64,000 nt of DNA from Eledone cirrhosa (lineage: Eukaryota), in NCBI GenBank assembly GCA_964016885.1, contig CAXHJY010000455.1, positions 4,203-68,202 of the forward strand, read 5' to 3'. Each line of letters opens with the position of its first letter. Within the stretch, counting starts at the first letter, position 1. The notes beneath the pieces were generated by a model that saw only the letters and a list, made by a program, of their open reading frames with translations, was not told where the DNA came from and made no database searches. Positions 2,373 through 17,350 of this stretch are shown one piece after another. Made by a program: the position numbers and the translations under genes.

Positions 2373-2438
2373 AGTTAAAAGAATAGAGGTGTAACACACA
2401 AGTTATTATATATTGGTAAACGGAATAGAAAATGCTGA

Positions 2439-2652
2439 CAAATTGTTCACAGTTGAAAAATGGTGTAATTAGGAATAAAAGAGTATTAGTGATTGTATGG
2501 GTTAGTATTCAGTTGTGGTTTTAAGTTTTTAAGTTTTTACCGGTTGCTCATTTCTAAATGCTTTTCAAAGATAATTTTGAGATAGAGTGTCCGTGCAATC
2601 ACTAATACTCTTTTATTCCTAATTAAACCATTTTTCAAATGTGAACAATTTG
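2439..2652. repeat. Inverted repeat, ~59-bp arms (2439-2497 / 2594-2652)
   Basis: caaattgttcacagttgaaaaatggtgtaattaggaataaaagagtattagtgattg versus its reverse complement with ~3 mismatches. Confidence 0.9.
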
Positions 2653-2659
2653 AACAACT

Positions 2660-4959
2660 GTGAACCCGCCATATAATCAGGATGTATCAACTAATATCCC
2701 TAGGTCTTTCTTCACTATCTTGGAGAAAAATGTCCCCCCTTCTCACAAATACCATGGTATTTTTAATAAAAATGTTATTAAACTCTCATTCTCTACCACC
2801 CCTAATATTAGTTCTCATTTAGCTAGCACTAATAATAGGAAAATTAGGGATGGATTCTCCTCTCTACATACTACTAGTCTGATGCATCGGACAATGCTTT
2901 ACCACCAGAACAGTCCTTATCTAATAGAGGTCCTATGTGCAATACATCACCACTCGAGCCAACCAATAACACCCGGAAGTGCAATTGTAGAGTGAGTGCT
3001 AACTGCCCTCTAAACGGTAACTGCCTTTCTAAGAACATTGTCTATGCTTGCGAGGTTATAACTAATTCCTCTAAAAGAACGTATATAGGATCTACTTCAA
3101 ACACTTTTAAGACTAGGTTTAACTCTCATATCTCTAACTTCAAACATGTTAGGTTTAAGAATTCTACCTCTCTAGCGCATTATATCTGGGATGTTAAGGG
3201 AGCTTATATACCATATAGCCTTAACTGAAGTTTAGTAGCACGATCTAACCACCTTTCTGCACATAGTAAGTTTTGTAATCTCTGTATACTTGAGACACAC
3301 TCTATTATTTTCTCTAGCGTACCCTTACTGAATAGAAAGTCTGAGATATTCTCTTCTTGCCCCCATGCCATTTCTAATTCTTACTTTTATTATAAACCCA
3401 AATGTTCTAGTAGTACAAATTGTACCCATTAGCAGATATATTCCATTACTTAGTTTTTTGTTTGGGTTCTTTTGTTTGCCAACATTAATGTTATCATTGG
3501 TTTTTGATGACTCTTCATTCTAGCTCTCATAATCATTTGGCCACTGTACAATATCTATGTCTTCACTATTACACCTTGTTAATATACATAAGATTACACA
3601 ATTTACGCCACTTACGTTATTCTATTATTATCTTTATATTTTTTTACTATTATTAACTTTAATTTTAATTTTAATATTATTTTTATTTCTATTTTTAATT
3701 CTATTTTTATTTCTAAGTCTATTCTGATTTATCTATCGACAACCCCCCCCCCCCCCTCCCCCCATGCACACATAAACTTATTGTCAACCCCTCCAGATTG
3801 AATATGATTATATTTAAACCCCTCCCCCTCTTTTATGCTCCGTTCTATTATTTATTATAGCATATCGAATATATTTTATGCCACTTCGCACCCTCCATAT
3901 GTTTTATTAATTCTGTCCCCATTAGCCTACCTTAACTCTACTTAAGTCAGTTTTTTAGATATCGTTGCGTATATGATAGTGTAATTTTATTCCTTTTTGT
4001 AAACATTTGTAATGATACATTAAAGTTTATATACTTTAATGACTTAAACTATAGCTAATATTATACTACCTTATCGGAAGGGTTCGATATTTTTAATATT
4101 AATTTATCAGATAGGGTTTGGAGTCATTTAAAATGATCGCTTTCCTTGGTGTTTACCTAATTTCTTAATGCACGCGAGGCATAAATGTGTATACATTTGC
4201 TTTTGTTTTGTAATTTCCGGTTGATTGTATTTATTTGTTTTATTCTATATTCTATTTACTATTCACTGTCTGGCTTCGCTCACTCATCCACACATGTCTG
4301 TCTACTAACCTTGTAATGATAAGTATTTATATATTTTATGCCAATTTTAAAATATATTACATTATGATATAGATCCTTATTACTTACCGTTCATTATATA
4401 TAACATTATGATATTTAAACTTTATATATCATGTAAGATGTCTGGATTTTTTTAAATATTTTAATATTGTGATATGTAACATTATGATATTTAGACTTTA
4501 CATATCATGTTAGATGTCTGTATATTTTTTTCTGTAACATCATATTTTTTCTGTAACATCATAATTTTTCCCTGTACCATTATAGTTTTTTTGAGTATTA
4601 TATGATTTATATTTCCTCATTTATTATGTAACCCAGTATGAATCATTTTGTCTATATTGTTTATGGTAATTGTTAATATAATGTTAACATTTTATCATTG
4701 TATTTCATTGTGACATCTATATTGTTTCTGTAAATTAACCGGGGATTATCTATTCTACTTTATTATATTGTATTGAATTATATAATGTTGTTGTTTATTA
4801 TTTGTTATACGTGTTTCTTATAATTATATCATATTATGGCCTCATGTATATTGGGTAGATGTATTAGTATTATTTTCACTATTACCATGCTTATTTTTAA
4901 TATTCAAACTTCTAATAGGGCTTAATTTCTGTGTAATAGAACATAGATATGTGTATTGT

Positions 4960-5011
<52 letters not shown>

Positions 5012-5429
5012 CATATATACATGTATATATTGTACCTTTTGATTTTTAATTTGGAATTTTAATGTTGGTATAAATATATTATTATTATAATGTATTATAT
5101 TGTGTTATATATAATTCCTGCTCTATATAACCAAATTTGTTTAGATTTAGGTTGGTGGCTTGGGACTATATTTGTAATATGGTTCTTAATGTTATCTACA
5201 TCCTTAGTTATTAAATTTTATTATTATATCTTTATTTTCATTTTTATTATCGTATATCTTTGCAAGACATTAGTGTATGTACACTCCATATTCTTCAGAC
5301 TTTCTGGCTTGTATCTGCTGTTATTACATCTTGTTGTTTTGATTGCCCTGATGAGTCCTTAATAGGACGAAAGATTGTCGGCTAATAAAAACTTTTGATG
5401 TATTAAAGGATTATTTGTTTTACCCTCTT
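2660..5429 (+). mobile_element. 5'-truncated Penelope-like retroelement (YRDD-type, possibly Nematis-like) with GIY-YIG and long 3' region
   Basis: Broken frames 2660-3432: NPPYN..KLSFSTTPNI, CNC..CPLNGNCL..NIVY, YIGSTSNTFKTRFNSH, CNLC..E, LLNRKSEIFSSCPH. About 2 kb of AT-rich 3' sequence ends in a hammerhead, then (TA)n. Confidence 0.85.
5337..5390 (+). ncRNA. Type I minimal hammerhead ribozyme
   Basis: gcc-CTGATGA-gtcct taat aggac-GAAA-gatt-GTC-ggc. Full core, 5-bp stem II, stem I gcc/ggc extendable (tttt.att/aat.aaaa); stem III is only 1 bp. Confidence 0.8.
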
Positions 5430-6288
<859 letters not shown>

Positions 6289-6364
6289 AACTTTGAAATG
6301 TTTTGGCCAGTATTGGCCCAGGCCATGTCTAACTTAATAGCACCACCTGGCGAAGTCTTTCAAT

Positions 6365-9361
6365 TCAGGATTTGGGCACCATGGCCCATTCGAGAAGAGA
6401 ATTACTGTTTGCGGAGACATATCCGGGTGTGGGTGGTTTGTCCGGGATTACTTGGAGGAATTTGTCCAAAGACTTCTTGAATTTTGTGTGGTCAGTTTCT
6501 GTTTTGACGTGTCCTGGTGTGATGTTGAAGAGAGCAGGGCCGATTGAGGTGAAATAATTGTGCCGTATTGTTGTTATGAGTTGCGATTTAGATTTTTGAA
6601 TGGGACGGATAGCACGGGGCCCAAGCCTTGGGTGTATCTTGAAGGCGATGCCAACATCATTTGGGCAGTGATGATGGAACATTTTCCACATCATGCAGAT
6701 AATATAACGCTCACGGCGACGTTGGAGTGAGTAAAGTTTCAGGTTTTCCAATCGACCCCAGTAGTCATGGTCTGACATGCCATCTATCTTTTTCGTGATT
6801 GCCCTTTGAGGAGCTTCAAGTTTCATGATACTTTGTTTCGTGTGGGGAGACCACAGTGGACAACAGTATTCAAGGTGTGGTCGGGCGAAAGTAGAGAAGA
6901 GAAGGATAATGGTGCGGGAATCTCTCGACTGGAAGGTTCTGAGGATCCAGGAACACATTCTGCGGGCCATGTCAACTTTGCTGCTTATATGCGTGGTCCA
7001 GCTTATGTTGCTGTCCACGGTTACTCCCAAGTCTCTGATGTTGTTAGATGCCACGAGAGTTTCCCCGGAGGGAAGGGAGTACGGGAGTTTCAGAGCATCC
7101 TCTTTTCCAAAGTGGATCAGTTCGAATTTGTCTTCGTTCAGTAACATGTTGTTCTTTTCTGCCCATTGGGTAACAGCCAGTAGGTCTGACTGAAGGCTTA
7201 TCCGGTCATCCACGCCATTGATGACCTTTTGGAGCTTGGAATCATCAGCGAAAATTTTAATGTTGCTGTGTTTGATGATGTCAGTGATGTCATTAATATA
7301 GATGATGAAGAGAAGTGGGCCCAACACAGTGCCTTGTGGGACTCCACTACTGACTTTGGCTGGGCTTGATTTGACTCCCTCAACTACAACATGTTGGGTT
7401 CTGTTTGACAGGAAGCTCTTGATCCACTGCAGCAGCTTTCCAGTGACACCAATATTGGACAGCTTTCTCAGTAGAATGTTATGATCAACCCTGTCAAAGG
7501 CCTTGCTGAAATCAAGGTAGATAACATCAGTGTTGGAACCCTCTCCCAAGGCTCTCAAAATGTCATCAAAGTGATGCAGTAGTTGCGTCAGGCAATCCCT
7601 TCCATTACGGAATCCATGCTGGTTGGAGTTCAGCATATTGTTACTCTCAAGGAAGTGGGTCATTCGCGATCTCACCACTCGCTCAAATACCTTAATGATA
7701 TGAGAGGTGAGTGAGATTGGACGGTAATTCACGGCAAGGGATTTGTTTCCCTTTTTGAAAACTGGGACAACAGACTGGGATAGAAGGTTTTCTGGCACAT
7801 ATCCAGCATCCAGTGAGTTCCGCCACAGATTGGCAAGAGGAGAAGCAAGTTGGTGTTGACACGCCTTCAAGACACAAGCAGGGAACCTATCGGGACCTAC
7901 TGCTGAATTATGCTTGATTTCCTTTATTGCCGCCAAGACATCAGGGGCGCCAAACGTTATGTCCGATAAGGTGTAATGGGGAGTAACATCGCCGATACAG
8001 CCCAGATCGGCCATATCAGGATTGCTGAAAACAGAGCAGTATTGTTTCTGCAGTATCTCACCCATGGTTTTAGCATTGTCTTGAAGAGTGCCATTTTCAT
8101 CAATTAGAGGGCCAACAGTAGAGCCAGTGATTTTGTGTTTTTTTGCAAATGAAAAGAACACTTTGGGATTGAGTTTGATCTTCTCAATGGCCCAGGCCTC
8201 TTCAGCTCTTCTCTGATTGTTGATGAGGGACATTATGTTGTTTTGGAGGTTATGTTTTTTAATCTCTAGTGATGAAATGGCAGTCAAGTTGATGTGTTGC
8301 TGCTGACAGTATTTCAGATTGTTGATTTTTTTGTTCGTTCTCTTAATTTTTCTGATGAGCGTTTTTCTATTTCTAGGGATTCTGCTCTTAGATTTGTTTA
8401 TAGTTCTTAATGGGGTGTGTTTAGCACATATGTGTGTAACAGTGTCCACAAATGTCTGCCAGGACTTTTTGATGTTAGTGGGTGTATGAGTGTGCGTGAA
8501 GGACCAGTCGACATGTGCAAGATCATGACTGATCGCTTCCCAGTTTGCATTGTGGAAATCCATAGCGTCAAACGGATGGACAGGAGAAATGACATTGGGT
8601 TTGTATATTGGACGGTGGAATCTCAGATCACAGAGAACCATGTCATGATCAGAGAGTAGAGTTTTCTCCACTGCAATATTGTGGATATTGTCAGTGTGAT
8701 TGCTGAAAATTAAGTCTAGGACGTTTTTGTGGCACCTCGTTGGTTCGAGCACTAGTTGGGATAGGAAGAAATCATCCATGAAGTCAAGAAGCGATTCCAC
8801 AGCTTCCCTGTCAGAGGTTGAGGCAGAAGAACCTGGTGGCAGGGTGTTTGTGGACCAGTCAACTCCGGGGAGGTTGAAGTCCCCCATCATTAAGATGTTG
8901 TCAGGGTGACACTCTTGGATGAAACACTTTATGCTGTTGAGGCATTCCTTGAAGCATGGTACAGGCGTTTGGGGTGGCCTATAGAGCCCAACTACTAATA
9001 GGTTGTTGGTTTGACTGAATACAGTGACTGCCTCACAGTATCCATTAGTGAATATGTTCATAGCCTCTGTTGAGAAAGAATTATGGACATAAATGGCAGT
9101 TCCGCCCTTTCTTCTGCCAGCGCGATCAGCACGGATGGCTTTGAAATTTTTCACTTTCACCTCGGCTTCCAAGTGGAGGTTACTGAGATGGGTTTCAGTG
9201 AGGACGAAGAAAGGGATGTGGTTTGGATGGACATCAATCCAGTCCTCCAGGAATTTGATCTTCCATTTTTGAGTATTGGTGGAAGGGCTGATGCCTTGGG
9301 CGTTAAGCAAAAATGTAGAGGCGAGAGTGGATGGTTTTAATTGTTTTGGTGTGTTGTTAAT
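6365..9361 (-). CDS. LINE ORF2: APE endonuclease plus reverse transcriptase
   Basis: APE motifs LNAQG, LTETHL, GLYRPP, MGDFN, LDLIF, SDH; RT motifs [43 protein letters not shown]; RPHLEYC..WSP. Frame open from 9361; true start codon unknown. Confidence 0.95.
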
Positions 9362-9372
9362 TTATTTGTTTG

Positions 9373-10527
9373 TTAATGGCAGCAATGGGAGTTTGTGCAG
9401 TGGCGTGATAGTGGAGGGTGGTGCTGGGTGATAGCTCGAATGTTTTTTTCCAGTTCTTTTGCCAGATTCATTATGGCTAAAAAAGAGGAAGAAGTTTCCT
9501 GTTTAGAAGACTGTTGGTGACTGTGGTAGTGGTTATTTTTATGTAGGTTATGGTTTTTGTTTTTGCTTTTATTTTTAATTTTATTTTCATTTATCCGACG
9601 GGTCCCCGGGAGATGGGTAAAGGGACAATCCCGGTCTAAACACAATCTGTCTCGCAGGGAAAAACGGCAGATTTGTGGATTCCTTGTTTGAGTTATTGGT
9701 GGTTGTGTTGGTGTTAAATTAGAGTATGTATTATGGTGGTGGCTGTTTGTGGGGATAGATCGTTTTGTCCTAGGTAAATGGGTGAATTTGCAGCCACTAT
9801 CCGTACATATTCTATAGCGTAGAGAGTAGCGGCAAATGATGGGGTTTCGAGTGGGTGGGTATATGGGTGTGGGTGTTGTGAGAGGTGTAGATGATGGTTT
9901 GGGTAGGATTTGACGACCTTTATGGACTGTGGGAGGGAGAGTTCTTGTTCTGGTATTAGAAGGTAAATTCCTTGACATAGCAGTAGACAAAAATGTTGTA
10001 GTAGTAGTAGTAGGCAGAGATGTTGGCAGTGGTGATGATTGGACTGCTGGGCCAGAGAAAGGATGTGGCGTTTCATGCTGTGAGACAGAGGCTACTGGGG
10101 GGTCAATAGTTTCATTTAGTAGATCGGCCATTGTTGATGAATCAAGGAGTGGTTCACACTGTTGTTGTTGCTGTTGTTGATGTTGTTGTTGTAGCTGTTG
10201 TTGATGTTGTTGTTGTAGCTGTTGTTGTTGTTGCTGTTGTAGCTGCTGTTGTTGTTGTTGCTGCTGCTGGACAGCATTCGAAGAGAAAACACACCGTAGT
10301 TTATCCAAATGTTTATTGATTAATTTAAAAGCAATTTCGATTTGCTTTAATTTATTTTGAATCTGTTGTTCAGATCGAGTTTTCAAAAATTGAACTGTAC
10401 GTTTAGCAATGTCGTTCAGAGATGAAGCATCTATATTTTCTGTTTGGGAAAGGCAATGCCATGTGTTTATTAGAATGTCGATTTCATTATCAGACCAGTT
10501 CTGTTTGGATTTTTGCTGGTTAGCCAT
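9373..10527 (-). CDS. LINE ORF1: Myb/SANT-like N-terminus, polyQ, two CCCH zinc fingers
   Basis: 384 aa from ATG; WSDNEIDILINTW...RSEQQIQNKLKQI; Q-rich tract; two C-x8-C-x4-C-x3-H motifs. Confidence 0.85.
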   Translation of the reverse strand: MANQQKSKQNWSDNEIDILINTWHCLSQTENIDASSLNDIAKRTVQFLKTRSEQQIQNKLKQIEIAFKLINKHLDKLRCVFSSNAVQQQQQQQQQLQQQQQQQLQQQHQQQLQQQHQQQQQQQCEPLLDSSTMADLLNETIDPPVASVSQHETPHPFSGPAVQSSPLPTSLPTTTTTTFLSTAMSRNLPSNTRTRTLPPTVHKGRQILPKPSSTPLTTPTPIYPPTRNPIICRYSLRYRICTDSGCKFTHLPRTKRSIPTNSHHHNTYSNLTPTQPPITQTRNPQICRFSLRDRLCLDRDCPFTHLPGTRRINENKIKNKSKNKNHNLHKNNHYHSHQQSSKQETSSSFLAIMNLAKELEKNIRAITQHHPPLSRHCTNSHCCH

Positions 10528-10538
10528 TCTAGTTTTGA

Positions 10539-10995
10539 GTGTGTGTGTGTTTTAGTTAAGTATTTCAATATATATATATTTTTTTTTAAAATTTATTTTT
10601 GATTTATTTTTGTTTTTTGTTTTTCTTGTGTGTGAGTGAGAAGCGTATATATATAAATATGAGTATATATATATATATATATATGTATATTCTGGTTATT
10701 TGAAATTAATTAAGTTAATGAAAAGACGAAAGTAGATAATAATAATTTGTAGTTAAAGGAAAATGTACTCACAAGTTCGTGTGTGTGTGTTTTAGTTAAG
10801 TATTTCAATATATATATATTTTTTTTAAATTTATTTTTGTTTTTTGTTTTTCTTGTGTGTGAGTGAGAAGCGTATATATATAAATATGAGTATATATATA
10901 TATATATATGTATATTCTGGTTATTTGAAATTAATGAAAAGACGAAAGTATATAATAATAATTTGTAGTTAAAGGAAAATGTACTCACAAGTTCG
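10539..10995. repeat. Tandem duplication (~240 and ~215 bp) in LINE 5' UTR
   Basis: gtgtgtgttttagttaagtatttc...gtactcacaagttcg occurs twice. Confidence 0.9.
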
Positions 10996-11007
10996 AAAAC
11001 ACGTGGT

Positions 11008-11161
11008 TTCAAATATATAATAATATAGATGTATGAAAAATGTATTAACCGGTCAATTTTCAAATATATAATAATATAGATGTATGAAAAATGTATTAAC
11101 CGGTCAATTTTCAAATATATAATAATATAGATGTATGAAAATGTATTAACCGGTCAATTTT
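11008..11161. repeat. 3 x ~51-bp tandem repeat in LINE 5' UTR
   Basis: aaatatataataatatagatgtatgaaaaatgtattaaccggtcaattttc x3. Confidence 0.93.
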
Positions 11162-11240
11162 TGTTTGTTTGGTTTTGTCTTGTGGTTTTGTTTTGTGGCT
11201 GTGTGACTTGCTGCTTACTCGGGGAGAGAAGTAAAAACAC

Positions 11241-11305
<65 letters not shown>

Positions 11306-11311
11306 CATATG

Positions 11312-11390
<79 letters not shown>

Positions 11391-11743
11391 GTTATAACAT
11401 TTCTCCACACACAGACTATATCAATCATATAAAGAATTTGCCACCAGATCTACCAACCTAACACTCTTGTTTACCTACCTAAGTGCCTCTACCACACATA
11501 TCTCTCTGCCACACAATATAAACAAGACGCACATGCGTGCCACACATATAACATTTGCACTATATAACCGCTTATCTTCATGTTGTATTTTAACCTGTAT
11601 TTTTGATTTTTGATTGTACCTCTTAATATGAATTCTGTAATGAATGTTGACCCACAATGTTTGAATATGTATCAATGTTTGAATATGTATCGGTATGTCT
11701 CTCGGCTAAAAAGGAGGTCATATAACTGTCCATGCATTAATTA

Positions 11744-11797
11744 ATTGCTCCGAAGAATCCACAACCTCGGTTTGGAGGAAACAGCTGTAAGCACAAT
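11744..11797 (+). ncRNA. Variant or degenerate type I hammerhead motif
   Basis: attgct-CCGAAGA-a tcca caacc tc ggtt tgga g-GAAA-cagct-GTA-agcacaat. Palindromic loop III; U4C change in core. Confidence 0.6.
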
Positions 11798-11824
11798 CAG
11801 GTTTTGAACAGTTCTTTGATTCTT

Positions 11825-12757
<933 letters not shown>

Positions 12758-14225
12758 ATTCTCCACTCAGACTATGCTAAACCCATGGCCTTCAAATACC
12801 TGATACTCAAAAACTCAGCAATGTCTAGTAGTGGTAAGTTTAATATTCTGATCGCAGATTTGGTACGAATAATGAAGAATGTGTCCCGCATGTGCGACCC
12901 AACAGAAATGGAAAGACACACACAACACTTCATCAACCGCATGCAGTTCTCTGGCTACAACCAAAGAGACAGAGTCAGAGTATACGAAGGAGCCACGGAG
13001 AAGTATAAGACCCTCATAGAACTGGAAATGAAAGGAATTTGCCCATTATACAGGAGCAAATCATGGAATAGCTTAGATAGGGCTAGACATAAGATAGGGA
13101 AAGCCACCTCTTGGTACGACAACCGAAGATACCAGAGTGTCATGTTTGTGGACGCTACCTCTGGGGGAAAATTAACTAACCAGTGTAGAAAGGCCCTGAG
13201 AAAGACCCACTTAAAGATTAAGGTGGTACAAAAGCCAGGAACCACCATAAAATCCCTGATCAGCAACACCTACCCTTTTAAGAAAACCCACTGTACTACT
13301 AGGAAATGTATCATATGTAACGTAAAACCCCGGATAAACTGTAAAACTAGAAACGTAGTCTATAGCATAAGATGTACAGAGGGTACTTGCAGAAACATGA
13401 CAACAACATACATAGGAGAGACAGCTCGTAGCATAGGTGAAAGGATAGACCGACACTGGGGGGAAGTAAAAGGACGAAAAACGGTCCAGTACTATACGAA
13501 CATGCCATACAACAACACGACGGTAACATAGACAACATAGAAATTAGAATAATATCTAAACATAGAAATGACCCAGCAGATAGGCAAATCAGTGAGGCCA
13601 GTGAAATCGAACTTAGAAGGCCAAGACTAAACAGAAAGAATGAATGGAATAACAACAGCACCCAAACAAACAACACTGATCTAAGAGACGTATAAATAAA
13701 TAAATAAATAAATAAATAAATAGATAAATAAATAAATACATACACAAGCACAATAACAACAAAGACATATAAACACAGATTAGTAAATATAGAATACATT
13801 AACCGATACACAGTCACCCAATCACGAACACACATCAAACAAAACACTATACACACACTCAAACGCATGCGCAAAGAAGACAAAATAAAATAAACAAACA
13901 AACAAACAAATAAATAAATATATAGACAGACTAAATAAAAATGGCGTAGACATACAATGTAACGGGAGGAAACAATAGCACCACTGACGATGTTGCAGAT
14001 GTGCAACGAAAGAACTTTGATAAACTATATATATGTGTTTGTGTCTATATTGTATCTGTATTATTTTTGACCGTCGGTCAGTCAATGGTAACATTGAGGA
14101 CCGAATAAATTAGATTACCGATATAAAAGACACAGAAGCGATAAGCGAAAACCAACGAAACAGTGAGTGTGTTCTGTTATTAATTCTGGCAATATTACAC
14201 AAATATGACCCTCCCCAAGTATAAC
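12758..14225 (+). mobile_element. 5'-truncated Penelope-like retroelement, second lineage (RT thumb, Cys-rich linker, GIY-YIG)
   Basis: MQFSGY, SVMFVDAT, KIKVVQKPG, CxxxxCxxC..C, NVVYSIRC..YIGETARS..R; frameshifted C-terminus (..RQISEA..LNRKNEW); hammerhead in 3' region. Confidence 0.85.
13981..14020 (+). ncRNA. Minimal hammerhead motif of PLE pseudo-LTR
   Basis: cca-CTGACGA-t-gttgca gatg tgcaac-GAAA-gaactt-tga. 6-bp stem II with an extra U after A9; weak stems I and III. Confidence 0.6.
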
Positions 14226-16289: not shown

Positions 16290-16361
<72 letters not shown>

Positions 16362-16363
<2 letters not shown>

Positions 16364-16960
16364 GGCTAGGTAAAATTCCCGAGAACCATGGACGAGTTCT
16401 CTCCAGCGGTCTCCGTCCTTCATTATCGCTGCCATGTCCTGCGTCTCCAACAGACCAGTGTCTGTCCTTAAGGCATCAAAATACGTTGACCTTGGTCTTA
16501 CTCTTCCAGTGTGTCCATGTAGGGGATCCCAAAGGAGGACTGAGTGCAATGTCAACTCTGGTTGTCGTTGAGCATGTGCAGCCAACTTCATTCTCCTCTG
16601 TGTCGCTTTTAAGTTGACCTTTGGGAGGCTCCCATACAGCTCTGAGTTTTTCATCCTCAGTGTATACTGATTAATGTTCAGAGCCATCCTCAGCATTCTC
16701 GTGTAGCACCCATCCACCATCTGAGTGAGTTTTTTGGTCAGTGTCCAAGTCTCAGACCCGTACAGCAGCACAGCCAGCACTTCAGCAATGAAGAGGCGGA
16801 TTTTCAGGTCTTTACGCAGGTCCGTCTTCCACACCGATCTCAAGTTGTGGCACGCCACCCAGGCTTTGCTCTTCCTCTCAACCACATCATCTTCAGTATG
16901 CCCAATCTTTGCTCCCAAATACAGGAAGTCCTCAACTAATTCTAGCAGCTTGCCGCCTAC
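16362..16960 (-). mobile_element. RTE-clade LINE 3' fragment
   Basis: [55 protein letters not shown]; ends in (TA)n. Confidence 0.9.
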
Positions 16961-16964
16961 ATTA

Positions 16965-17131
16965 GTGATCCCCTCTGGACACACTGGAAGAGGAAGACCA
17001 AGGTTAACGTATGTTGATGTCCTAAGGAAAGACACTGGTCTGTTGGAGACACAGGACATGGCAGTGATAATGAGGTAGAGAGACCGCTGGAGAGAATTCG
17101 TCCATGGATCTCGGGATTTTTACCCTCCCTA
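16965..17131 (+). mobile_element. RTE-clade LINE 3' end, inverted relative to its neighbour
   Basis: [29 protein letters not shown]; diverged reverse complement of 16362-16530; ends in (TA)n. Confidence 0.85.
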
Positions 17132-17152
17132 GAATATATATATATATATATA

Positions 17153-17350
17153 TTGTTATGCTTTGGGAGGGTCATGTTGCCAATAAGAAACACACGAACC
17201 CTTGCTTTCACTCCAATTTATTATCAATTAAATTTATAAATTTAAGAATTTATAAATTTCTAGTTGGTTGGTTCCACAACCAGACGATTGCTCATATATT
17301 GTCAAAGTTCTTTCGTCACACATTCTCTGACCACATTGTGTGAACATACA
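17153..17350 (-). mobile_element. Diverged PLE pseudo-LTR remnant
   Basis: Minus strand contains cgaaagaactttga (as in the HHR at 13981-14020) and ends atgaccctcccaaagcataac, like the termini at 128-148 and 14205-14225. Confidence 0.6.

What the first reader, a model, noticed from the sequence alone, without database searches (positions are those of the whole stretch)
9373..10527. Unusual ORF1 architecture: Myb/SANT-like domain, polyQ, disordered linker, duplicated CCCH fingers
Seen: W-x11-W...RSEQQIQNKL pattern, ~35-residue Q-rich tract, P/T-rich linker, and two homologous modules TRNP.ICR.SLR.R.C....C.FTHLP.T.R (C-x8-C-x4-C-x3-H), then a basic N/K/H tail. Known: typical LINE ORF1s use RRM, CCHC, PHD or esterase domains; tandem CCCH fingers bind AU-rich RNA; Myb domains direct DNA targeting in R2 and TRAS. 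Inference: a transcription-factor-like ORF1 that could tether its RNP to TA repeats and form condensates. Novelty not verified.
Basis: partly seen in the sequence, partly recalled or inferred. Interest (0 to 1): 0.75.

Follow-up and report, generated by a model that had tools for sequence, protein, structure and literature searches.

The report
Octopus-type CR1 LINE with CCCH-finger ORF1
This is the first gene of an apparently full-length jumping element (a CR1-type LINE, likely from an octopus); its two zinc fingers are a reshuffled form of a likely RNA-packaging module shared by a marine LINE lineage, its front end may be a borrowed Myb-like DNA-binding domain, and nothing found shows that it steers the element to TA repeats.

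Summary
The RT differs at 10 of 209 residues from an Octopus sinensis family classed as CR1.

The C-x8-C-x4-C-x3-H finger is not unique. It is the last of three CCCH fingers in the ORF1 of a marine CR1 subclade, linked to the same ORF2 in Mnemiopsis gene models and on one contig. Relatives read PHD-like domain, P/T/S linker, three fingers, basic patch, amphipathic helix. This element keeps that frame, lacks the PHD and fingers 1-2, and duplicated finger 3 long ago; both copies are under purifying selection.

The Myb/SANT call is plausible but unproven (about 60%): Pfam E 5e-5, below the cut-off, three predicted helices, fold searches inconclusive, no homologue found. The polyQ looks like a young repeat expansion.

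TA tethering is unsupported. TA arrays fill 19% of the window, and Penelope-like and RTE-like elements abut them too.

Most likely ORF1p packages the RNA, with a swapped N-terminal chromatin or DNA contact module. I found no CCCH or Myb ORF1 type in print; Repbase and Dfam could not be searched. Verdict: new variant of a known kind.

The parts
6290..11241 (-). Apparently full-length CR1-clade LINE, about 4.95 kb, bounded by TA arrays on both sides
   Evidence: clade
10528..11241 (-). 5' UTR, 714 nt, with a tandem duplication of about 240 nt (89% identical) and a 51-nt repeat in three copies; no ATG upstream of the ORF1 start
9373..10527 (-). ORF1, 384 aa (P0001)
   Evidence: start context has A at -3 and G at +4
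10297..10503 (-). ORF1 residues 9-77: predicted three-helix domain, Myb/SANT-like by a sub-threshold Pfam match
   Evidence: fold searches inconclusive
10159..10269 (-). ORF1 residues 87-123: polyQ made of CAA/CAG codons with a 24-nt higher-order repeat
9853..10158 (-). ORF1 residues 124-225: P/T/S-rich, likely disordered linker
   Evidence: L003 has a P/T/S-rich linker and P0128 and P0132 have low-complexity linkers at the same place
9757..9852 (-). CCCH finger copy 1 (C232, C241, C246, H250)
9592..9687 (-). CCCH finger copy 2 (C287, C296, C301, H305), equivalent to finger 3 of the subclade ORF1
9493..9591 (-). Basic N/K/H-rich stretch, residues 313-345
9424..9492 (-). Conserved amphipathic helix, residues 346-368; likely oligomerisation element (inferred)
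6365..9361 (-). ORF2 frame, 998 codons without a stop: APE endonuclease plus RT; first Met at codon 101
6290..6364 (-). 3' UTR with predicted stem-loops (z -2.38; 2 of 200 shuffles fold as well); no poly(A)
5428..6288 (.). TA/TATG array at the LINE 3' end, shared tail to tail with a Penelope-like element
11242..11399 (.). TA/TATG array at the LINE 5' end

Best explanation
This is ORF1 of an apparently full-length CR1-clade LINE, likely from an octopus, and it likely encodes the protein that packages and chaperones the element's RNA. Shown: two-ORF anatomy, RT near-identity to an octopus CR1 family, descent of the finger from a subclade-wide ORF1 module, an old duplication of that finger kept by selection, and no detectable PHD. 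Inferred: the two fingers and the basic patch bind the element's RNA in place of an RRM/CCHC; the C-terminal helix oligomerises; the linker and the polyQ are flexible spacers. The N-terminal slot holds a PHD-like domain in relatives. Here it holds a three-helix, probably Myb/SANT-like domain that would give general DNA or chromatin contact for the RNP. The TA-array position most likely reflects a genome rich in TA arrays that many retroelements enter or extend, not an ORF1-coded address.
For: ORF2: RVT_1 E 4e-31 and Exo_endo_phos_2 E 5e-14. RT differs from O.sinensis_33_LINE at 10 of 209 residues, counted by eye in the RT alignment of PMC10294476; that family is listed as Jockey/CR1 with 69 RT members. 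Best named database hit: Argonauta hians, 57%, sister to ORF2 at 99/93. 12 of 13 hits to residues 220-384 carry the finger. Mnemiopsis models P0140 and P0142 join three fingers to the same ORF2 family. L003 carries a PHD-like domain, linker and three fingers just upstream of a related ORF2. All fall in one RT clade of 24 rows, 96/95. Finger pair: pS about 1.05, pN 0.27; 16 of 21 identical residues use different codons. Weak same-class hits: zf-C3H1 E 8e-4 and Nab2-type E 5e-3; MBNL1 E 0.037. N-terminus: PF13837 E 5.4e-5; 8 of the 10 best Atlas hits with a family share the Myb clan; three helices in two models. TA context.
Against: RNA binding, oligomerisation and DNA binding are all untested. 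The Myb score is under Pfam's cut-off (23.9 against 27), Atlas scores are under 0.9 (lead only), and both structure models are single-sequence with pTM 0.39 and 0.44. The N-terminus also aligns weakly with the relatives' pre-PHD helical region (80 of 2000 shuffles and 52 of 2564 natural windows score as high). No homologue of residues 1-85 was found among 169 proteins and 71 loci, so its presence across the family is unshown. Only one copy was examined, and it is flanked by TA on both sides, which a targeting model also predicts. The clade label rests on another study's tree and a by-eye comparison.
Confidence: 0.6

Rival explanations
1. The N-terminal domain is not a captured Myb/SANT domain but the eroded helical region that precedes the PHD in relatives. 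The polyQ then grew where the PHD decayed, and the domain is structural or a protein contact.
For: Ungapped 70-residue alignment with the pre-PHD region of P0132 (20% identity, pairwise E 0.02); profile score 3.4 bits, reached by 80 of 2000 shuffles and 52 of 2564 natural windows. The polyQ starts where the PHD's first Cys pair would be.
Against: The signal is marginal and hhalign gives probability 0.2%. The Pfam Myb match is E 5.4e-5 library-wide, while P0128, P0132 and L003 show no Myb match at all.
Confidence: 0.22
2. One reading: the Myb-like domain reads (TA)n DNA and the fingers hold the RNA, so ORF1p tethers the RNP to TA arrays and sets the target.
For: Both ends of the element abut TA arrays with the same TATG polarity. 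A Myb-like match exists. R2 uses Myb and zinc fingers for target DNA (PMC12503042 passages).
Against: TA arrays cover 19% of the window. A Penelope-like element with a hammerhead ends in the same array, and 3 of 3 RTE-like 3' ends run into TA runs. (TA)n is a reported preferred target of Penelope-like Naiads (PMC8557442 passages). In APE-type site-specific LINEs specificity is mainly set by the endonuclease (recalled). This is a single copy.
Confidence: 0.1
3. The N-terminus and polyQ are peculiar to this copy or a minor subfamily (captured or slipped sequence fused in frame) and play no part in mobility.
For: No homologue of residues 1-85 found. The closest ORF1 relative, P0123, has one finger and an unrelated called N-terminus. 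The polyQ has a 24-nt higher-order repeat with 93% matches.
Against: 86 stop-free codons have a chance of about 0.0015 at local base composition, and the start context is strong. P0123 may simply be called short. The finger duplication is old.
Confidence: 0.08

Closest known systems
Octopus sinensis CR1 clusters O.sinensis_33, _59, _211 LINE (PMC10294476, Table S7 and RT alignment)
   Same: RT 95% identical to cluster 33 by eye; clade CR1, superfamily Jockey.
   Different: That study classified RTs only; 'ORF1' occurs once in its main text, in the reference list. No ORF1 or target description was seen.
CR1/L2 ORF1 types I-V (PMC4120745)
   Same: Two-ORF APE-RT element; variable N-terminal ORF1 module; PHD common in the lineage; domain shuffling proposed.
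   Different: No RRM, CCHC, Transposase_22, esterase or PHD here. The main text has 0 occurrences of CCCH, Myb or SANT. It would fall in type V, unclassified.
Unnamed PHD plus triple-CCCH ORF1 of the same CR1 subclade (P0128, P0132, L003, Mnemiopsis P0140/P0142)
   Same: Same finger 3, same order of linker, fingers, basic patch and helix, same ORF2 clade.
   Different: Here the PHD-like domain and fingers 1-2 are missing, finger 3 is duplicated, and a Myb-like domain and polyQ are present.
R2 retrotransposon N-terminal ZnF plus Myb (PMC12503042); TRAS Myb-like region (recalled)
   Same: A Myb-type module in a non-LTR element.
   Different: There the Myb is part of the RT-bearing protein and R2 targets rDNA with an RLE nuclease. 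Here it is a weak match in ORF1p and no target specificity is shown.
Cellular CCCH RNA-binding proteins (TTP/ZFP36, MBNL1, Nab2) and Myb/SANT-like proteins of PF13837 (trihelix and Harbinger partner proteins, recalled)
   Same: Cys3His ligand pattern; weak profile matches; three-helix pattern.
   Different: Spacing is x8-x4-x3 with a 36-residue linker; all matches are below curated cut-offs; binding specificity cannot be carried over.

Membership tests
CR1 clade LINE (Jockey superfamily) | ORF2 with an N-terminal APE endonuclease followed by RT | tested here: met
   Pfam hits above cut-off for both
CR1 clade LINE (Jockey superfamily) | RT groups with reference CR1 elements | tested here: met
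   Indirect: 199 of 209 residues identical, by eye, to a cluster that PMC10294476 placed in CR1 by tree. My own tree had no named Repbase references.
CR1 clade LINE (Jockey superfamily) | 3' stem-loop and short-repeat tail rather than poly(A) (recalled) | tested here: inconclusive
   Stem-loops at z -2.38 and no poly(A); the TA run could be tail or target
Proto2 clade | RT like Proto2 references, with extra residues between the PQG motif and YADD | tested here: not met
   Proto2-1_BF and Proto2-1_HM differ throughout and carry the longer spacer (by eye)
Myb/SANT-like domain PF13837 | Score at or above the curated cut-off of 27 bits | tested here: not met
   23.9 bits, E 5.4e-5 for residues 1-85; 18.7 bits for the whole protein
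Myb/SANT-like domain PF13837 | Three helices, with Trp just before helix 1 and a long helix 3 | tested here: met
   Helices 13-29, 34-50, 53-83 and W11 in both single-sequence models
Myb/SANT-like domain PF13837 | Compact helix-turn-helix fold matching solved Myb or trihelix structures | tested here: inconclusive
   pTM 0.39 and 0.44; best Z 5.5 (rmsd 3.5, 52 aligned) and 5.0 (rmsd 4.4, 67 aligned), to unrelated helical chains
Myb/SANT-like domain PF13837 | DNA binding | not testable with these tools
   Needs EMSA or SELEX
CCCH zinc finger (broad class) | Conserved Cys-Cys-Cys-His ligands | tested here: met
   C, C, C and H invariant in 13 of 13 aligned rows
TTP/ZFP36-type tandem CCCH (AU-rich element binders) | C-x8-C-x5-C-x3-H pair with a linker of about 18 residues (recalled) and a zf-CCCH score above cut-off | tested here: not met
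   Spacing x8-x4-x3, linker 36 residues; PF00642 not hit; zf-C3H1 19.6 against 20.9; zf-CCCH_2 17.7 against 25.8
Microsatellite-specific LINE | Most independent copies inserted in the same repeat | not tested
   One copy only; no whole genome is held and flanks of other copies were not seen
ORF1 types I-IV (RRM+CCHC, Transposase_22, PHD, esterase) | Presence of the type's domains | tested here: not met
   No such Pfam hit at E up to 1; no PHD-like Cys cluster and no match to the relatives' PHD profile

The most novel reading that the evidence does not exclude
An octopus CR1 family replaced the chromatin-reading PHD of its ORF1p with a captured Myb/SANT-like domain that binds (TA)n DNA, while duplicated CCCH fingers hold the RNA. 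ORF1p would then be a bridging factor that addresses an APE-type LINE to a microsatellite, a targeting route I did not find described.
Probability: 0.1. Interest if true: 0.75.

Novelty: new variant of a known kind. Interest (0 to 1): 0.42.

Why it matters
The sturdy result is an ORF1 type with no RRM: a marine CR1 subclade reaching from comb jellies to octopods appears to use CCCH fingers, and I found it in neither ORF1 survey that I searched. It widens the list of RNA-binding solutions for LINE packaging. It also offers a natural swap (PHD-like against Myb-like in the same N-terminal slot) for asking whether ORF1 accessory domains influence where LINEs land, which PMC4120745 raises as untested for PHD. 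ORF1 domain shuffling in CR1 and L2 is already documented, so the kind of event is known. Interest would rise sharply only if target bias were tied to the N-terminal domain.

Tried and rejected
No whole genome is held, so copy number and other flanks could not be examined. The run index lists 24 runs; 7 from 4 studies hold half or more of the sampled words, one may be the source, and which part they hold is unknown; no RNA holder listed. Word-index searches with ORF1 whole and with residues 220-310 found nothing; only the full HMMER scan did, and it was run on residues 220-384, so the N-terminus never had a full-library search. P0133 was dropped as a low-complexity hit (1 of 13). Metagenome scan: 1 distant locus. 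Viral contigs: nothing. Fold searches gave no Myb match from two low-confidence models, and a PDB sequence search gave only E of 0.3 or worse; none of this counts for or against the fold. The complex prediction for three copies of the C-terminal helix gave no verdict. Proto2 was considered and rejected. Rfam microRNA hits on TA arrays are low-complexity chance matches. Earlier scan notes: nothing on this sequence or genome; the 8 rows concern other LINEs and were not used. Literature searches that found no CCCH or Myb ORF1 type; two searches returned no papers. Repbase, Dfam and subscription papers could not be searched, so an existing catalogue entry is not excluded; the zip supplements of PMC4120745 were not opened.

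Full report
Observation. Every listed feature is there: W11-x11-W23, RSEQQIQNKL, 32 Gln in residues 87-123, a P/T/S-rich linker, two C-x8-C-x4-C-x3-H modules (232-250, 287-305) and an N/K/H-rich stretch. Two such motifs arose in 0 of 100,000 shuffles.

The element. Eleven bases after the ORF1 stop a 998-codon stop-free frame begins, with APE endonuclease and RT above Pfam cut-offs. A 75-nt 3' UTR folds into stem-loops (z -2.38) and runs into a TA array with no poly(A). A 714-nt 5' UTR starts at another TA array. There is no second copy in the window. The best named ORF2 hit is from Argonauta hians (57%). In the RT alignment of PMC10294476 the entry O.sinensis_33_LINE differs from this RT at 10 of 209 residues, counted by eye, and its Table S7 lists it as Jockey/CR1 with 69 RT-bearing members. 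The element is therefore a CR1, and the host is likely an octopus. Proto2 references differ.

The fingers are inherited. A full HMMER scan with residues 220-384 gave 13 hits at E up to 0.001; 12 carry the finger and one was dropped as low complexity. In these relatives the finger is usually the last of three CCCH fingers and is followed by a basic stretch and, in most, an amphipathic 'FL.L' helix. The three that reach far enough upstream (P0128, P0132, L003) have a PHD-like Cys/His cluster, named from its pattern since Pfam gave no PHD hit; P0132 also has a weak Tudor-knot match (E 9e-4). Linkage to this ORF2 family is shown twice: Mnemiopsis gene models P0140 and P0142 join three fingers to ORF2, and contig L003, evidently a eukaryotic piece within a bacterial MAG, has the ORF1 directly upstream of a related ORF2. 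L003 was 1 of 71 loci matching the ORF1 profile (E 6e-17; next 0.95), though many loci lack upstream DNA. An RT tree of 40 rows puts this ORF2, Argonauta, Mnemiopsis and L003 in one clade of 24 rows (96/95); L003 is a long branch.

What is special here. The PHD-like domain and fingers 1-2 are missing, and finger 3 is present twice. The two copies share 21 of 32 residues, 16 of those with different codons; synonymous sites are saturated (pS about 1.05) against pN 0.27. The duplication is old and both fingers are kept by selection. Matches to cellular fingers are weak and below cut-off (zf-C3H1, Nab2-type; MBNL1 E 0.037). Spacing and linker differ from TTP-type fingers (recalled), so AU-rich specificity cannot be assumed.

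The N-terminus. Residues 1-85 match PF13837 over positions 2-73 of 89 at 23.9 bits, E 5.4e-5, under the cut-off of 27. In the Atlas, 8 of the 10 best hits with a family share the Myb clan, at scores under 0.9, a lead only. Two single-sequence models agree on three helices but have low pTM, and fold searches were inconclusive. A rival signal exists: a weak alignment to the relatives' pre-PHD helices, matched by 80 of 2000 shuffles and 52 of 2564 natural windows. No homologue was found among 169 proteins and 71 loci, but this part never had a full-library search. I put a Myb/SANT-like fold at about 60%. The polyQ contains a 24-nt higher-order repeat with 93% matches and is absent from the relatives seen, so it looks like a young expansion inside an older low-complexity linker.

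TA repeats. Both ends touch TA arrays, but such arrays make up 19% of the window. The array at the 3' end is shared with a Penelope-like element (GIY-YIG at 2878-3225; hammerhead at 5342-5386, E 6e-4). A 441-bp piece and a second Penelope-like fragment interrupt the next arrays, and 3 of 3 RTE-like 3' ends run into TA runs. Some of those ends were defined by the array edge itself; the RTE 3' ends and the hammerhead end were not. (TA)n is a reported target of Penelope-like Naiads (PMC8557442 passages). TA adjacency is thus common to unrelated elements here and needs no ORF1 tether, although one copy cannot exclude it.

Mechanism. Most likely ORF1p packages and chaperones the element's RNA, as L1 ORF1p is thought to (PMC12503042 passages): fingers and basic patch bind RNA, the helix oligomerises, and the N-terminal slot gives general chromatin or DNA contact. 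The anatomy, descent and selection are shown; all binding steps are inferred.

Comparison. PMC4120745 (parts 1-2 of 6, passages, part 1 of supplement 1) lists RRM, CCHC, Transposase_22, PHD and esterase types and has no occurrence of CCCH, Myb or SANT. PMC5203782 (passages) has none either for L1, though it reports a bacterial-type HTH in an algal L1 ORF1. PMC9115989 (passages) covers octopus RTE and Dong elements and never mentions CR1. PMC10294476 was seen as passages plus searches of supplement files 1-12, 19, 21, 23 and 25; PMC7846101 as passages. R2's Myb lies in the RT-bearing protein; the TRAS Myb is recalled only. Searches found no CCCH or Myb ORF1 type. Repbase and Dfam were out of reach.

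Verdict. A real and conserved ORF1 architecture; new variant of a known kind; interest 0.42. The firm novelty is the CCCH-type ORF1 of a CR1 subclade and its rearrangement in octopods. The TA-tethering idea stays possible at about 10%.

Noticed in passing
window 9300-9510 (-): ORF2 has no ATG before the endonuclease motifs (first Met at codon 101). Its frame opens with ATT right after a TAA, and upstream of that TAA the same -1 frame is open for 47 codons across the end of ORF1, with an A-AAA-AAC heptamer in ORF1's frame. This suggests non-AUG reinitiation, or a copy-specific stop in a frameshift overlap; the EKN residues it encodes are not kept in P0123.
   Followed up: partly
window 2378-5427 (+): Penelope-like element between two TA arrays: GIY-YIG remnant at 2878-3225 and type I hammerhead at 5342-5386.
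   Followed up: partly
window 12757-14030 (+): 5'-truncated Penelope-like fragment (label from recalled motifs; no Pfam hit) with a hammerhead-like core at 13984, starting at a TA array.
   Followed up: partly
window 11391-11831: Unidentified 441-bp piece between two TA arrays; its first 20 bases resemble the start of the fragment at 12757.
   Followed up: no
window 16361-17153 and 51872-52091: Three 3' ends of an RTE-like element (label recalled), two forming an inverted pair, each running into a TA run.
   Followed up: partly
P0132 (residues 13-57): A relative's ORF1 carries a weak Tudor-knot/chromo-like match ahead of the PHD-like domain (E 9e-4, below cut-off), so the N-terminal slot varies across the subclade.
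   Followed up: no
L002-L071: 70 loci in prokaryotic GTDB assemblies, mostly MAGs, encode LINE ORF2 relatives, most likely host contamination.
   Followed up: partly
window 10539-11161: The 5' UTR holds a tandem duplication of about 240 nt and three copies of a 51-nt unit, recalling monomer-type internal promoters.
   Followed up: no
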